The notes: generated by a model from the letters alone, not told the origin. A DNA stretch of 64,000 nt from Erysipelotrichales bacterium (GCA_022508535.1 JAFLUZ010000007.1:6731-70730), one strand, 5' to 3'; positions 13,483 to 60,370 are shown, counted from the stretch's first letter. Numbers and translations: made by a program.

Positions 13483-13503
13483 GCGGTCAATATTTATGAC
13501 CGC
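13483..13503. terminator. bidirectional hairpin between convergent sepF and the mini-kinase gene
   Basis: GCGGTCA / TGACCGC 7-bp stem flanked by an A-run upstream and a T-rich tract downstream. Confidence 0.65.
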
Positions 13504-14036
13504 TATTTGTGATTTTTTACATATTCAAGGAATTCAGGTGTTTTACTCCAATATTTGATTCCCCAGTTTTCGAAGTTCCATTCTTCCATATAGTTATTAC
13601 ATTCATAATCAATATAATAAAGAATATCTTCTTGGAGTACAAAATTTGTGGGAAAATAATCAATATTTGTGTTGTTAGGATATAAAAGAGAACACATTTT
13701 TTTGACTTGATCAAAACAATATAATGGTAATTCATCATTTAAAACCATTTCATAAACTGTTTTTCCATCAATATATTCTTTTACAATGCGTTCATTTTGA
13801 ATATCAACATCAATCATTTTAGGAAGAGGAATTCCAATACTAGATAGTCTATTATAATCGTTAATTTCTGCTTGGATTTTATCTCCGAATTGGTAATAAT
13901 CGCATGGCTCATGGTGTATTTGTTTTAATACAACTAATTTTCCTTCAAATGATGCTAAATATGAATATCCGCCTTTTCCCTTGCCTAGTAATTTTATAAT
14001 TGTATATTCTTTGTCATTTACACTTAATTTTTCCAT
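13503..14036 (-). CDS. 177-aa minimal protein-kinase-fold protein (Bud32/RIO/Kdo-kinase-sized)
   Basis: Gly-rich loop LGKGKGGYSY, VVLK lysine, catalytic D-x4-N (DYFPTN) and a metal-binding D in YYIDYE. Own SD (AAGGAG) and a TTCGAC-16-TATAAT promoter. Confidence 0.6.
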   Translation of the reverse strand: MEKLSVNDKEYTIIKLLGKGKGGYSYLASFEGKLVVLKQIHHEPCDYYQFGDKIQAEINDYNRLSSIGIPLPKMIDVDIQNERIVKEYIDGKTVYEMVLNDELPLYCFDQVKKMCSLLYPNNTNIDYFPTNFVLQEDILYYIDYECNNYMEEWNFENWGIKYWSKTPEFLEYVKNHK

Positions 14037-14134
14037 AGATATATACTCCTTATAAATATATTATAATGGAATATTCTATTAGTCGAAATTCTTTTTTTAA
14101 TGGACAATTTTGCATAATAGTATATACTATTAAT

Positions 14135-14218
14135 AGGAAGAGGTCCCAGAGCAATCTAGTGACTAACTCCTACAGCTAGTCAGCCGCCTGAGATTGTTGG
14201 TCAGAGTGCGGCTTTTTT
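14135..14218 (+). ncRNA. candidate type I antitoxin sRNA (copy 1), convergent with the toxin ORF
   Basis: TGGACA-16-TATACT promoter (14101-14128). Hairpin TGACTA/TAGTCA displays the loop ACUCCUACAGC. GCCGC...GCGGC stem followed by T6 at 14213-14218. 70/78 nt identical to the second copy at 43553-43630. The 5' end is a guess. Confidence 0.55.
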
Positions 14219-14222
14219 GTTT

Positions 14223-14318
14223 CTACCTATCCTTATTATTTCTAATAATTCCGATAACTGTAACTACAATACTTACAAGAGTAAATATTAAGCTTACAAT
14301 ATTAATAACCGAAGTCAT
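14223..14318 (-). CDS. 31-aa hydrophobic type I toxin-like peptide (holin-like/Fst-like class): MTSVINIVSLIFTLVSIVVTVIGIIRNNKDR
   Basis: AAAGGAGA SD 9 nt before the ATG. Single TM helix plus a basic tail. Stop codon lies 4 nt from the 3' end of the convergent sRNA. Not in the ORF track (<60 aa). Confidence 0.6.
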   Translation of the reverse strand: MTSVINIVSLIFTLVSIVVTVIGIIRNNKDR

Positions 14319-14756
14319 CAATGAAATTCTCCTTTCTGTAATCAGAGAATCTATTGATGAATAATCTTTTTGATTACCATAAATATCATCTCCTTTCTAG
14401 CATAGGAGTTTTGCGCACCTAGACTTTTTAGGGCCTCATTATACTTATAGTTAAAACAAATTTATAAATAGTAAAATTTATGCTCTTTGAAACAAATTTG
14501 AGATTATAATGGGATAAAATATAGTTTTATTTACTTTTTTAAATTGTTGTGTATAATAATTAGTAGCCATTCTTGGCACGTTACCTAGACCCTTTGTCTA
14601 GGCTTTTTTATTTCATGATATTTTTATAAATAATGCATTTAACGCATTCAATCAATATAAATATTTTTACTTTAAAAGTTAACTGAAACAAAAAAAATCA
14701 CTTGACTACATTTTTTTATGGAAGTATATTAATGCCGTAAAAAGGAGAATTAAAAA

Positions 14757-15980
14757 ATGAAAAAGTCTATATTTTTATTATTTTTACCAGCTCTCGTTTT
14801 AGCTGGATGTGTCGGAAACGACAATAGCGCAAGCGAAAATTCAAAAGACCCTGTTTCAACACCAGTTGGTGGTAATTCAACATTACCAGAATCATTTGTA
14901 TCAGGAAGCGATGCTCAAGAAGCAAAAGATGCTTTAATGAACAAAGTTATGGCTTCTATGCAAACACTTGATTGGGATAGCTTCAAAGTCGCAGCAAGCT
15001 TAGATGCTAAGGGTTTACTATCATTCATGGCAGATGAAAATACTTTTGTTACATTATCTAATATGGATATTTCACTTAATCTTGAATTAATGGCATCTTT
15101 AAATAGTGAAGTACTCGGTAGTCTAGATTTTGAAACATTAGTAGGTGATGAAGATTTAGCAAAATTATCATTAATTGGAAATGCCAATTTTAGTCTTGAT
15201 TCATTAGCTATTGATGAAGAAGGAAATGAATATGGCGGAAACGTTAATGGAAGTTTTGATGGAAAAATCACATATGGCCGTCAATCTTTAAAAGCTCCAG
15301 GTATGGAAGAAGCTAAAGAAAGCGATTGGTTATTTGCAAATTATAGTTTTGAAATGAGTGCACTTGAAAATGGTGCAGAAGAACCTGAAGAAGAAAAACA
15401 AAGCATGACTCTTCTTAGCGATGATATCTTGCCATCATATTTAGAATTCGTCGGCGGATCTATGGATGATGAATATGAAGAATATTACTCAATTGCTGAA
15501 TTAGATGATGACGATTATTACGAAGAAGATGATGATCCTATGATGATGCTTTTAGCAATGATTTATGAATCAGCTAGTATTGCCGAAGTTGATAATACAT
15601 ACTTCCTTAAAGTCGAATTAAAAGATGTATTTGATATGTTATTTGCTTCTGAAGGAGGAGTAATGCCAGAATCTGATGCTGAAATGCCATCTCCAGTCAT
15701 CAAAGGTAGCATTGTTGCTAAATTTGCATTTAATGAAGAAGATGCATTAAGAGAAGTTGCATTAAGTCTTGAAGATGCAAAAGTTGCTTATGATAATTTT
15801 ATTGATTTAGAATTATCTTTCGCATTCTCAGCAGCTAAAACTGAAGAAAAAGTCGTATTAGTAACTCAAGCTGAAATTGATGCTTTAGGTGAAAATGTTG
15901 CTTATGTACCTGGTGAATACTTATTTGAAAGTATGGTTCCAGATTATCCATCAGACGATTATCCATCAGATGAATTCTAA
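14757..15980 (+). CDS. acidic lipoprotein of unknown function
   Basis: Signal peptide with lipobox LAG|C. Very D/E-rich mature part ending in the repeat DYPSDDYPSDEF. TTGACT-17-TATATT promoter at 14702-14730. Confidence 0.7.
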   Translation: MKKSIFLLFLPALVLAGCVGNDNSASENSKDPVSTPVGGNSTLPESFVSGSDAQEAKDALMNKVMASMQTLDWDSFKVAASLDAKGLLSFMADENTFVTLSNMDISLNLELMASLNSEVLGSLDFETLVGDEDLAKLSLIGNANFSLDSLAIDEEGNEYGGNVNGSFDGKITYGRQSLKAPGMEEAKESDWLFANYSFEMSALENGAEEPEEEKQSMTLLSDDILPSYLEFVGGSMDDEYEEYYSIAELDDDDYYEEDDDPMMMLLAMIYESASIAEVDNTYFLKVELKDVFDMLFASEGGVMPESDAEMPSPVIKGSIVAKFAFNEEDALREVALSLEDAKVAYDNFIDLELSFAFSAAKTEEKVVLVTQAEIDALGENVAYVPGEYLFESMVPDYPSDDYPSDEF

Positions 15981-16047: not shown

Positions 16048-16134
16048 CAGAAATTTAGTATTTTTTAATTAATGTATTTAGATATTATTTTCATTTCTTG
16101 ACAAGTTACAAATATTATTTAATAATATTTAAGT

Positions 16135-16356
16135 AAATCGTAGATAAAGACACGTATCTTAGAAGTACTGATTTAGCGAGATGACAAATGGTGAAAGGTC
16201 ATTATTAAGTATTTAAGATATATCACTTTGGAGAGATTATTCGATATGTAGAATAGTACGTTAATCGCGTTAAGATTATTGAGTGGTTTCTAAATTTTAG
16301 AAACAATTAAGGTGGTACCGCGTATATTACGTCCTTAAATTAAGGGCGTTTTTATT
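16135..16356 (+). promoter_or_regulatory. T-box leader (Ile specifier AUC at 16222-16224) controlling ileS
   Basis: AGCGAGA...GGTGAAAG stem I elements; T-box core AATTAAGGTGGTACCGCG (16307-16324); terminator CGTCCTT/AAGGGCG followed by T5. Confidence 0.9.
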
Positions 16357-28588: not shown

Positions 28589-28665
28589 GTCCTTGTAGCT
28601 CAGCTGGATAGAGCAACTGCCTTCTAAGCCGTAGGTCGGGAGTTCGAATCTCTCCAAGGACGCCA
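28589..28665 (+). tRNA. tRNA-Arg (anticodon UCU), CCA encoded
   Basis: Cloverleaf folded by hand: acceptor GTCCTTG/CAAGGAC, D arm GCTC/GAGC, anticodon loop CTTCTAA, T arm GGGAG-TTCGAAT-CTCTC. Own TTGAAA-16-TGaTAATAT promoter and its own terminator. Confidence 0.9.
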
Positions 28666-37102: not shown

Positions 37103-37157
37103 TAAGTTATTACAATAAACATTTGCGATTATTGATAAATTAATCTATAATATGAGC

Positions 37158-37372
37158 GACGAAGATAAAGAGGAGTACTAGTTAAAGATATTTAGAGAGT
37201 TGTGCAATTGGTGAAAGCATAATTATCCTAAACTAAGAAGGTCGCTTTGGAGTCATAGAGGAATCTACGTTTACTCGCGTTAAGAGTTTGCTTAAGTGTG
37301 TATTTAACTATTAAATACAAATTAAGGTGGTACCGCGTATTTTACGTCCTTAAATTTTAAGGGCGTTTTTTA
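37158..37372 (+). promoter_or_regulatory. T-box leader (Val specifier GUC at 37241-37243) controlling valS
   Basis: TTGCGA-17-TATAAT promoter (37123-37151); AGAGAG...GGTGAAAG stem I; T-box AAATTAAGGTGGTACCGCG; terminator ACGTCCTTAA/TTAAGGGCGT followed by T6. Confidence 0.9.
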
Positions 37373-43496: not shown

Positions 43497-43547
43497 ATAA
43501 TTTAAAAAAATATATGAATATTTAATAAGTTAATATATAATATTAAC

Positions 43548-43630
43548 GTAGAAGGTCCTAGCGCAATCTAGTGACTAACTCCTACAGCTTGTCAGCCGCC
43601 TAAGATTGTGAGTCCGAGAGCGGCTTTTTT
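43548..43630 (+). ncRNA. candidate antitoxin-like sRNA, copy 2 (orphan)
   Basis: 70/78 identity to 14141-14218 by hand alignment. TATAAT (43536-43541) sits within 1 nt of the same offset from the conserved block as in copy 1. Ends in GCCGC...GCGGC followed by T6. Confidence 0.5.
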
Positions 43631-43635
43631 AATTT

Positions 43636-43689
43636 CTATCTCTTTCTATTATTTCTAATATCTAGGATAACTGTAACTACAATACTTAC
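43636..43689 (-). pseudogene. decayed 3' remnant of the type I toxin ORF (...VSIVVTVILDIRNNRKR*)
   Basis: Homologous to the last ~17 codons of the 14223-14318 ORF. Homology stops at about 43690. No in-frame start codon or SD. Confidence 0.5.
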
Positions 43690-43834
43690 AGGTGTAACAA
43701 ATTTAAAAAGCGGTAAAACTAATAAAAAATTTAAAAATATTTCCTATGAAATGATTTAGATAATAGTAAAGGAGTTCAATTATTGAATAAATTTATGAAA
43801 ATTAATTGACATATATTATATATATGTGATAAAT

Positions 43835-60092: not shown

Positions 60093-60159
60093 TTTAAGAT
60101 TACAAATACTTGACTTCGTATTATTGACTTTATAATATTTTAGATATTATAATATTTTT

Positions 60160-60370
60160 GTCAACGAAGTAGATTAGTTTAGTAAACTTTTATAGAGAGA
60201 ATTTGTAAGGTGGAAAAATTCAAAGCAAACTAAATGGACACTATGGAGACACTTGTTTGAAATTAGTAGAATAAGCGTATTAGCGGCGTTAACGCAAAAT
60301 GAGTGCATAAATTTTTTATGAACTAAGGTGGTACCGCGTGTTTAACGTCCTTAGAATGGACGTTTTTTTA
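60160..60370 (+). promoter_or_regulatory. T-box leader of the hisS-aspS operon (specifier GAC at 60237-60239, overlapping CAC at 60239-60241)
   Basis: TTGACT-18-TATAAT (60124-60153); AGAGAGA...GGTGGAAA stem I; T-box AACTAAGGTGGTACCGCG (60321-60338); terminator AACGTCC/GGACGTT followed by T7. Confidence 0.88.

What the first reader, a model, noticed from the sequence alone, without database searches (positions are those of the whole stretch)
14101..14443. Type I toxin-antitoxin-like module: 31-aa hydrophobic peptide plus a convergent sRNA with a loop-exposed anti-SD
On the minus strand a TATAAT (14443-14438) precedes a leader and then an ORF (14318-14223). The ORF has an AAAGGAGA SD and encodes MTSVINIVSLIFTLVSIVVTVIGIIRNNKDR. 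This is a single TM helix with a basic C-tail, matching the architecture of Fst/TxpA/BsrG/holin-like type I toxins. On the plus strand a TGGACA-16-TATACT promoter (14101-14128) drives an RNA of about 84 nt. It ends in a GC-rich hairpin plus T6 at 14218, only 4 nt from the toxin stop codon. The toxin 3' UTR and the sRNA would therefore be fully complementary, as in the convergent txpA/RatA and bsrG/SR4 arrangements. The sRNA hairpin TGACTA/TAGTCA (14160-14182) presents the loop ACUCCUACAGC, whose CUCCU is complementary to the toxin SD. The same octamer AACTCCTA also occurs in cis in the toxin mRNA leader (minus strand, 14410-14403). Neither gene is in the ORF track.
Basis: partly seen in the sequence, partly recalled or inferred. 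Interest (0 to 1): 0.65.

Follow-up and report, generated by a model that had tools for sequence, protein, structure and literature searches.

The report
Candidate new type I toxin-antitoxin cassette
A small, movable cassette of about 370 bp in an uncultured gut Erysipelotrichales bacterium looks like a new family of RNA-controlled toxin-antitoxin modules, in which a 31-residue membrane peptide gene faces a small antisense RNA; this rests on sequence comparison only, with no experiment.

Summary
Comparison with relatives supports a type I toxin-antitoxin-like cassette. A full homologue lies in a related genome (L006, 77% identity), but in a different intergenic site. It keeps both -10 boxes, the terminator, the SD and a 31-codon hydrophobic ORF with a polar or basic tail. 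Another relative (L018) and a truncated second copy in the window (43536-43707) keep the sRNA. A 22-nt sRNA core is invariant in all four copies.

The toxin mRNA 5' end is predicted to pair with its own 3' UTR, which is the exact complement of the sRNA (-40.5 and -37.7 kcal/mol, z about -5, in both full copies). The toxin SD and AUG sit in a 17-bp hairpin and are less accessible than in any of 31 control genes. A short upstream ORF overlaps one arm of that hairpin.

No known toxin or RNA family matches. Only four copies in three genomes were found, and there are no expression or toxicity data.

The parts
14101..14128 (+). sRNA promoter (TGGACA-16-TATACT)
   Evidence: The -10 TATACT or TATAAT sits at the same alignment position in all four copies. 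L006 and L018 share a TTGCAA -35.
14115..14132 (.). Perfect 18-nt palindrome TAATAGTATATACTATTA over the sRNA -10; function unknown
   Evidence: (self-hit 14115-14132). The -10 region is also palindromic in copy 2, L006 and L018.
14135..14218 (+). Predicted antitoxin sRNA, about 84 nt (5' stem-loop, linker with CUCCUAC, terminator)
   Evidence: CM R1 scores 99.7 bits here and about 99-103 bits for the other three copies. No Rfam family matches.
14152..14173 (+). 22-nt core CAATCTAGTGACTAACTCCTAC, invariant in all four sRNA copies. On the minus strand it is the 3' arm of the toxin-mRNA long-distance pairing.
   Evidence: Alignments; pairing.
14182..14218 (+). sRNA terminator: AGCCGC(C)/(G)GCGGCT stem, loop of about 20 nt, T5-6 tail. 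There is no U-tract on the toxin strand.
   Evidence: The stem and T-run are conserved in all four copies.
14137..14183 (-). Toxin mRNA 3' UTR segment (complement of the sRNA 5' part) that pairs with the mRNA's own 5' end
14223..14318 (-). Toxin candidate ORF: 31 aa, one TM-length hydrophobic stretch plus tail RNNKDR (a TTG at 14321 could give 32 aa)
   Evidence: L006 orthologue MILIINIVSIIITLVSIITTIIDIINKNNNR has the same length with no indels, dN/dS 0.56 and GRAVY 2.4/2.6.
14328..14335 (-). Toxin Shine-Dalgarno AAAGGAGA (SD2)
   Evidence: L006 has GAGGAGA at the same position.
14315..14360 (-). 17-bp hairpin that sequesters the toxin SD and AUG
   Evidence: -17.4 kcal/mol here and -25.2 in L006. 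RBS accessibility is 0.19/0.06, against a mean of 0.45 and a minimum of 0.19 for 31 control ORFs.
14351..14380 (-). Upstream mini-ORF (MVIKKIIHQ*). Its 3' end forms the 5' arm of the SD-sequestering hairpin. L006 has MRNKKTHRWSLH* at the aligned AUG.
   Evidence: Read; inference only.
14389..14396 (-). Leader Shine-Dalgarno AAAGGAGA (SD1), 9 nt upstream of the uORF AUG. AAAGGAGATGAT is identical in L006.
14397..14437 (-). Toxin mRNA 5' leader: an imperfect copy (mimic) of the sRNA 5' part and the 5' arm of the long-distance pairing. It contains AACUCCUA.
14438..14443 (-). Toxin promoter -10 TATAAT (-35 weak in the window; TTTTCA-18-TATAAT in L006)
43536..43632 (+). Copy 2: orphan sRNA gene with its own TATAAT -10 and terminator
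   Evidence: 102.6 bits. It is 86% identical to copy 1 and could pair with the copy-1 toxin 3' UTR at -129 kcal/mol.
43636..43707 (-). Copy 2: remnant of the toxin ORF (..FKFVTPVSIVVTVILDIRNNRKR*). It has no ATG/GTG/TTG start, SD, leader or promoter; homology to copy 1 ends near 43690.

Best explanation
Window 14101-14470 is a self-contained cassette of about 370 bp with two convergent promoters, built like a type I toxin-antitoxin module.

**The two genes.** The minus strand gives an mRNA for a 31-aa single-helix membrane peptide, the presumed toxin. The plus strand gives an sRNA of about 84 nt, the presumed antitoxin. The sRNA gene lies entirely within the toxin mRNA's 3' UTR, so the two RNAs are perfectly complementary there.

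**The toxin mRNA is heavily self-restrained.**
- Its SD and AUG are locked in a 17-bp hairpin.
- The 5' arm of that hairpin is the end of a short upstream ORF that has its own SD.
- Its first ~40 nt, an imperfect copy of the sRNA's 5' part, pair with the 3' UTR in a long-distance 5'-3' helix.

**Inferred mechanism.** The sRNA binds the 3' UTR and displaces the mRNA's own 5' end. This removes the protective closed conformation. It also creates a long duplex, a substrate for double-strand-specific RNases, so the mRNA is degraded or silenced. If the sRNA is lost, the peptide is made and damages the membrane.

**Copy 2** (43536-43707) is a truncated duplicate that keeps only the sRNA. It could act in trans on copy 1.

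**Shown by sequence and comparison:** the anatomy, its conservation, the cassette's mobility, and the predicted pairings. **Inferred:** that both RNAs are made with these ends, that the peptide is toxic, and what sRNA binding does.
For: **Anatomy.** Verified.

**Conservation of the cassette.**
- L006 carries a full homologue (77% over 379 nt). It keeps both -10 boxes, the terminator, the SDs and a 31-codon ORF with no indel.
- L018 keeps the sRNA and the ORF's C-terminal codons up to the contig end.
- A 22-nt core is invariant in all four sRNA copies. A covariance model finds only these four in 249 kb.

**Mobility.** The cassette occupies three different intergenic sites. The corresponding sites are empty in close relatives.

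**ORF.**
- 13 of 31 residues differ between window and L006. Hydrophobicity (GRAVY 2.4 vs 2.6) and the polar or basic tail are kept.
- dN/dS is 0.56.
- Only 9% of random-substitution replicas keep start, frame and stop.

**Long-distance pairing.**
- Duplex energies are -40.5 kcal/mol (z -5.0) and -37.7 kcal/mol (z -5.6). None of 500 shuffles reaches either value.
- 27 consensus pairs are kept in both copies, with several one-sided changes and one compensatory change.
- Whole-mRNA fold z-scores are -4.8 and -10.8.

**RBS occlusion.** It is stronger than in all 31 control ORFs of the window.

**Published hallmarks of type I toxin mRNAs.** SD sequestration, 5'-3' long-distance interaction, and a helix that sequesters the 5' end of the toxin mRNA (described for par/Fst) are all described (PMC8594479, PMC6733600, PMC7472228).
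Against: - No transcript evidence. No sequencing runs could be listed for this organism.
- No toxicity data.
- Only two complete cassettes and four sRNA copies exist, all from one narrow clade, so covariation support is thin (one compensatory pair). The sRNA consensus structure has no covarying pair.
- dN/dS of 0.56 is only mild constraint.
- The long-distance pairing needs the toxin mRNA to read through the whole sRNA gene. The shared hairpin has no U-tract on the toxin strand, which fits read-through. However, no minus-strand terminator is seen before the 177-aa gene in the window.
- The toxin promoter in the window has no recognisable -35.
- The peptide matches no known toxin family.
- The predicted effect of masking the 3' UTR on SD1 is clear in L006 (0.79 to 0.20 unpaired) but absent in the window copy (0.45 to 0.53).
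Confidence: 0.6

Rival explanations
1. The plus-strand RNA is mainly a trans-acting regulatory sRNA whose single-stranded CUCCUAC acts as an anti-SD seed on other mRNAs. The facing small ORF is an ordinary small membrane protein, or non-functional, and only happens to overlap.
For: The sRNA is the best-conserved part, with a 22-nt invariant core. An orphan copy with intact promoter and terminator persists without a usable ORF. ORF constraint is mild (dN/dS 0.56).
Against: The toxin leader is a conserved mimic of the sRNA and pairs with its complement. This ties the two genes together. The ORF keeps its SD, start, length and hydropathy, and its RBS is unusually occluded. A 5-nt CUCCU seed is not specific, and in ensemble folds it is mostly paired within the sRNA.
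Confidence: 0.15
2. The cassette is a small selfish repeat, a MITE-like element with inverted repeats, that spreads between intergenic regions. The promoters, ORF and hairpins are by-products with no toxin-antitoxin function.
For: Presence/absence at three intergenic sites in close relatives, plus one truncated copy. An imperfect inverted repeat of about 40 nt.
Against: The inverted repeats are internal: homology between copies extends about 30-50 nt beyond them and covers both promoters. Each repeat starts at a predicted transcription start. No target-site duplication or transposase-related feature could be defined. G-U-compatible changes in the arms fit RNA pairing rather than DNA repeats. 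Mobility and type I TA function are not mutually exclusive.
Confidence: 0.12
3. The minus-strand leader and small ORF are a cis-regulatory leader, a leader peptide or attenuator, for the downstream 177-aa kinase-like gene.
For: In the window and in L018 the cassette lies directly upstream of the 177-aa gene on the same strand, with no minus-strand terminator between them.
Against: In L006 the same cassette is not upstream of that gene. It points at the 3' end of the lipoprotein gene, and L006 and L017 have only 185 nt upstream of the 177-aa gene with no cassette. The 177-aa gene occurs widely without the cassette.
Confidence: 0.05

Closest known systems
par (Fst / RNA II) of Enterococcus faecalis pAD1 and par-like loci of Firmicutes
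   Same: Convergent promoters about 300-400 bp apart; a toxin of about 31-33 aa with a hydrophobic helix and a charged tail; complementary terminator stem-loops; an intramolecular stem-loop that sequesters the toxin SD; an intramolecular helix that sequesters the extreme 5' end of the toxin mRNA (PMC7472228).
   Different: - No Fst/Ldr signature: no Trp after the helix, no P/D/S/TxxxG, and no Pfam or NCBIfam hit.
- The terminator has a U-tract on the sRNA strand only.
- The repeats are inverted rather than direct. The sRNA therefore resembles the toxin 5' end instead of being complementary to it, and sRNA versus 5'-region pairing is at chance level.
3'-overlapping type I systems of Bacillus subtilis (txpA/RatA, bsrG/SR4, yonT/SR6)
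   Same: The antitoxin sRNA is convergent and overlaps the toxin mRNA 3' end, and in those systems it promotes degradation of the toxin mRNA (PMC5848175 for SR6; for the others, my own knowledge). The host is a low-GC Gram-positive.
   Different: There is no sequence relation in either the peptide or the RNA. Here the overlapped 3' UTR is also the partner of the mRNA's own 5' end. To my knowledge this is not a described feature of those systems.
hok/Sok (plasmid R1) and aapA/IsoA (Helicobacter pylori)
   Same: The full-length toxin mRNA is closed by a 5'-3' long-distance interaction, with local SD-sequestering hairpins (PMC6733600). hok also has an upstream reading frame (mok) coupled to toxin translation (my own knowledge), which resembles the uORF seen here.
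   Different: Those are Gram-negative systems. Their antisense RNA targets the 5' or translation-initiation region, not the 3' arm, and in aapA the 3' arm is itself the anti-SD. There is no homology.
SprA1/SprA1AS of Staphylococcus aureus
   Same: A convergent, 3'-overlapping sRNA and a peptide of about 30 aa.
   Different: Here no complementarity between the sRNA and the toxin RBS region exceeds chance.

Membership tests
Type I toxin-antitoxin systems (class) | Small (<60 aa) hydrophobic, membrane-directed peptide ORF with a functional-looking RBS | tested here: met
   31 aa, GRAVY 2.4 over residues 1-25, tail RNNKDR, SD AAAGGAGA 10 nt upstream of the ATG. The orthologue in L006 has the same length and character.
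Type I toxin-antitoxin systems (class) | An antisense RNA gene whose product is complementary to the toxin mRNA | tested here: inconclusive
   The promoter -10 and the terminator with its T-run are conserved in four copies, and the gene lies within the presumed toxin 3' UTR. Transcription and the mRNA 3' end could not be checked.
Type I toxin-antitoxin systems (class) | Toxin primary transcript folded so that the SD is occluded (local anti-SD and/or 5'-3' long-distance interaction) | tested here: met
   By prediction only. A 17-bp SD/AUG hairpin gives accessibility below all 31 controls. The long-distance duplex has z about -5 in both copies.
Type I toxin-antitoxin systems (class) | Peptide toxic on overexpression; sRNA neutralises it | not testable with these tools
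   Needs an experiment.
Fst/Ldr superfamily (par-like loci) | Toxin signature: Trp (or Val) between the TM helix and the charged tail, P/D/S/TxxxG(C) in the helix; Pfam/NCBIfam Fst models | tested here: not met
   No hit to any type I toxin model at E <= 10. There is no Trp, and Gly23 is not conserved (Asp in L006). The signature is taken from PMC7472228.
Fst/Ldr superfamily (par-like loci) | Bidirectional intrinsic terminator shared by both RNAs | tested here: not met
   The T-run lies only on the sRNA side. On the toxin strand the hairpin is followed by GACUAGCUG (window) or AACACACAG (L006).
Fst/Ldr superfamily (par-like loci) | Direct repeats (DRa/DRb) that make the 5' regions of the two RNAs complementary over the toxin RBS | tested here: not met
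   The repeats are inverted. The sRNA versus toxin 5' region duplex is not better than shuffles (z -1.7, -0.2, +0.5).
hok/Sok and aapA/IsoA | Hok_Gef or AapA peptide family; antisense RNA targets the 5' translation-initiation region | tested here: not met
   No Pfam hit. The sRNA gene lies in the 3' UTR.
hok/Sok and aapA/IsoA | 5'-3' long-distance interaction that closes the full-length toxin mRNA | tested here: met
   (prediction plus conservation in two copies).
Any Rfam antitoxin or sRNA family | Covariance-model match | tested here: not met
   No gathering-score hit in the window. Only E > 7 noise in 13900-14800 on either strand.

The most novel reading that the evidence does not exclude
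The antitoxin works by mimicking the toxin mRNA's 5' leader.

- The toxin mRNA's own 5' end and the sRNA are near-copies that compete for the same 3' UTR site.
- While the 5' end is held on the 3' UTR, its CUCCUA anti-SD is kept away from the leader SD (SD1). The uORF is then translated, and the ribosome melts the 17-bp hairpin over the toxin SD and AUG.
- When the sRNA takes the 3' UTR, the freed 5' anti-SD snaps onto SD1 and shuts the relay. An antisense RNA bound about 250 nt downstream would thus switch translation off at the 5' end without touching any RBS.

Predicted SD1 accessibility in L006 fits this (0.79 with the long-distance pairing, 0.20 with the 3' UTR masked). The window copy does not show the effect (0.45 versus 0.53).
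Probability: 0.2. Interest if true: 0.7.

Novelty: new member of a known kind. Interest (0 to 1): 0.45.

Why it matters
No paper in the searched library describes a type I toxin-antitoxin system in Erysipelotrichales. These peptides escape gene callers and protein databases. The cassette would therefore add an unannotated family from an uncultured gut lineage.

Its layout combines features known from separate systems. These are a 3'-overlapping antisense RNA as in the Bacillus systems, a 5'-3' closing helix as in hok, aapA and par, and an upstream ORF that overlaps the SD-sequestering stem. The antitoxin's target and the mRNA's own 5'-end partner are the same sequence. If the cassette is real, it offers a compact system of about 370 bp for testing how binding at a 3' UTR is relayed to translation and stability at the 5' end.

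The orphan sRNA copy also allows a test of cross-protection between copies.

Tried and rejected
- **Rfam.** Gathering-score and permissive E-value scans on both strands gave nothing.
- **Protein families.** Pfam and NCBIfam on both peptides gave only noise.
- **Protein searches.** phmmer of the peptide against 1.84 billion representatives gave 0 hits. The peptide is too short for the word-indexed protein search and is not on record as a called gene.
- **Nucleotide collections.**
  - blastn of the cassette against plasmids and phages gave chance fragments only.
  - An 18-mer core scan of 185,579 species genomes gave three chance hits, in Prevotella and a gammaproteobacterial MAG.
  - A 20-mer core scan of JGI metagenomes gave 0 hits.
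  - A peptide-alignment scan of JGI metagenomes confirmed none of 598 pattern matches. The same scan of viral contigs confirmed none of 233.
  - A 17-mer scan of viral contigs gave one chance hit inside a CDS.
- **Insertion boundaries.** I tried to define insertion ends and target-site duplications by aligning filled and empty sites. The intergenic DNA is too diverged.
- **Ungapped inverted-repeat finder.** It sees only a 13-nt fragment of the long-distance pairing in L006, because the repeat has bulges and G-U pairs.
- **Neighbouring mini-unit (14530-14612).** It is rejected as part of the system: pairing z is about 0 and it is absent from L006.
- **Anti-SD mechanism.** Rejected.
- **Leader of the 177-aa gene.** Rejected on the L006 context.

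Full report
**1. Observation**

- Toxin side: the minus-strand TATAAT (14443-14438); the ORF 14318..14223, MTSVINIVSLIFTLVSIVVTVIGIIRNNKDR; its SD AAAGGAGA (14335-14328).
- sRNA side: the plus-strand TGGACA-16-TATACT (14101-14128); a GC-rich stem (AGCCGC/GCGGCT) followed by T6 that ends at 14218, 4 nt from the stop codon.
- Other features: the TGACTA/TAGTCA arms, and AACTCCTA in the leader (14410-14403).

Promoter-like hexamers alone mean little in this 30.6% GC sequence: 14 were found and 16.4 expected. The weight therefore has to come from comparison. Rfam has no match on either strand. The peptide hits no Pfam or NCBIfam family.

**2. Copies and relatives**

The window holds a second copy at 43553-43690, 86% identical over 138 nt.
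- It keeps a TATAAT -10 (43536-43541), the whole sRNA and the terminator.
- Of the ORF it keeps only the C-terminal half (..TPVSIVVTVILDIRNNRKR*). There is no ATG/GTG/TTG, SD, leader or promoter.

The organism is an uncultured Erysipelotrichales bacterium known only from metagenome assemblies. I reached relatives through neighbouring proteins.
- **L006** (177-aa neighbour 85% identical) carries a complete homologous cassette, 77% identical over 379 nt. It sits in a different intergenic region, between the lipoprotein gene and the ileS T-box.
- **L018** (88%) has the sRNA next to the 177-aa gene, as in the window. Its contig ends inside the ORF's last codons (..DIIRNNKDR*).
- **L006 and L017** have an empty site where the window has the cassette.
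- **The window** has an empty site where L006 has its cassette.
- **L020 and L021** have an empty copy-2 site.
- **L013, L015 and L016**, which are more distant, lack the whole block: sepF directly precedes ileS.

The cassette is therefore a discrete, movable unit of about 370 bp. Homology between copies extends over both promoters. A covariance model built from the four sRNAs finds only those four in 249 kb. Searches of plasmids, phages, viral contigs, 185,579 species genomes and JGI metagenomes found no further members. phmmer against 1.84 billion proteins found none either.

**3. The ORF**

The L006 orthologue is MILIINIVSIIITLVSIITTIIDIINKNNNR.
- It has the same 31 codons with no indel, although the flanking leader does have indels.
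- The UUGAUG start context is the same, with SD GAGGAGA.
- 24 of 93 nt and 13 of 31 residues differ. All changes in the helix are between I, V, L, F and T, apart from Ser3 to Leu and Gly23 to Asp, and the tail stays polar or basic.
- dN/dS is 0.56. Only 9% of random-substitution replicas keep start, frame and stop.

This is moderate evidence for coding, not strong evidence.

**4. The sRNA**

The following are conserved in all four copies:
- the -10 box;
- a 22-nt invariant core, CAATCTAGTGACTAACTCCTAC (14152-14173);
- the AGCCGCC/GGCGGCT stem;
- the T-run.

The consensus fold is a 5' stem-loop, a linker that holds CUCCUAC, and the terminator. It has no covarying pair.

- In L006 and L018 it is kept in a shifted register (CUAAC/GUUAG instead of UGACUA/UAGUCA).
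- It is weak in copy 2.
- In ensemble folds of the full sRNA, the CUCCUA is mostly paired with the sRNA's own 5' UAGGA.

**5. The toxin mRNA**

The leader octamer is the centre of an imperfect inverted repeat of about 40 nt. The first 40 nt of the toxin mRNA are a near-copy of the first 40 nt of the sRNA. They therefore pair with the mRNA's own 3' UTR, which is the complement of the sRNA.
- The 5'/3' duplex is -40.5 kcal/mol in the window (z -5.0) and -37.7 in L006 (z -5.6). None of 500 dinucleotide shuffles reaches either value.
- Whole-transcript folds have z -4.8 and -10.8.
- The two-sequence consensus keeps 27 long-distance pairs in both copies, with several one-sided changes and one compensatory change.
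- Each arm begins at a predicted transcription start and lies inside the conserved promoters. This argues for an RNA-level role rather than for terminal repeats of a transposable element.

The toxin SD and AUG lie in a 17-bp hairpin (-17.4 kcal/mol in the window, -25.2 in L006). RBS accessibility is 0.19 and 0.06, below all 31 control ORFs of the window (mean 0.45, minimum 0.19).

The 5' arm of that hairpin is the end of a short upstream ORF: 14380..14351, MVIKKIIHQ*, and MRNKKTHRWSLH* in L006. This uORF is preceded by a conserved SD, AAAGGAGAUGAU. The hairpin shared with the sRNA terminator has no U-tract on the toxin strand. This fits read-through into the sRNA region. In L006 a strong hairpin followed by a U-run lies about 60 nt further on. 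In the window the next feature is the 177-aa gene.

**6. Test of the anti-SD idea**

Outside the 3' overlap, the sRNA pairs with the toxin mRNA no better than shuffled sRNAs do (z -1.7, -0.2, +0.5). The 5-nt CUCCU:AGGAG match would fit any SD. The copy-2 sRNA could still pair with the copy-1 3' UTR at -129 kcal/mol, against -176 for the cognate sRNA.

**7. Mechanism**

The best-supported reading is a type I TA-like cassette. The sRNA binds the 3' UTR and competes with the mRNA's own 5' end. That exposes the mRNA and creates a long duplex, which leads to decay or silencing. The peptide is made only when the sRNA runs out.

The par system offers a parallel: an intramolecular helix that sequesters the 5' end of the toxin RNA contributes to its stability (PMC7472228). 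SD sequestration and 5'-3' interactions are recognised hallmarks of type I toxin mRNAs (PMC8594479, PMC6733600).

A more specific relay is possible: release of the 5' anti-SD onto SD1 would block the uORF, and that would keep the toxin RBS closed. Predicted accessibilities fit this in L006 (0.79 to 0.20) but not in the window copy (0.45 to 0.53). I hold it as a hypothesis only.

**8. Comparison with known systems**

The cassette works most like par/Fst and the 3'-overlapping Bacillus systems, with a closing helix like that of hok and aapA. It is not a member of any of these families.
- It has no toxin-family hit.
- It lacks the Fst Trp and PxxxG signature.
- Its terminator is not bidirectional.
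- Its repeats are inverted, not direct.
- Its antisense RNA targets the 3' rather than the 5' region (see the membership table).

No paper in the held library describes a type I system in Erysipelotrichales.

**9. Verdict**

This is a credible new family within a known class, with an interesting layout. It rests on two complete cassettes and four sRNA copies from one clade, with no expression or toxicity data.

Noticed in passing
window 14530-14612 (+): A TTTACT-16-TATAAT promoter-like site is followed by a unit of about 50 nt with two hairpins and a canonical terminator (14584-14602 plus T6). It lies between the toxin promoter and the lipoprotein gene. It shows no significant pairing with the toxin mRNA or the sRNA and has no counterpart in L006. 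It may be an independent tiny RNA, or an insulator against antisense read-through.
   Followed up: partly
window 13503-15980: The 177-aa RIO-like kinase gene, the cassette and a 407-aa lipoprotein gene form a block of about 2.6 kb inserted between sepF and the ileS T-box. Relatives with 81-82% identical IleRS have sepF directly before ileS. The 177-aa protein has more than 8000 homologues at 76-95% identity in quite different genomic contexts. One is named by its source as from an Oscillospiraceae MAG, which suggests wide horizontal spread.
   Followed up: partly
window 14115-14132: A perfect 18-nt palindrome, TAATAGTATATACTATTA, is centred on the sRNA -10 box. The -10 regions of copy 2, L006 and L018 are also palindromic, with partly different sequences. 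It could be an operator, a divergent -10, or a weak hairpin at the end of the toxin transcript.
   Followed up: no
window 14194-14364 (+): The plus-strand frame antisense to the toxin ORF is also open and hydrophobic in both the window (56-aa ORF) and L006. It has no SD, and its first start codon lies inside the sRNA terminator loop.
   Followed up: partly
L002 (Logan SRR13619848 contig) end = window 14167: An independent assembly of the same strain breaks exactly inside the 27-nt stretch shared by the two sRNA copies. The L012 and L018 contigs also end next to or inside the cassette region. The repeat may cause assembly breaks, which would make the family under-represented in short-contig data.
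   Followed up: no
window 16132-16339, 37153-37354, 60155-60355 (+): There are three T-box leaders (ileS and two others) and one tRNA-Arg(TCT) at 28589-28665. These are ordinary features.
   Followed up: no
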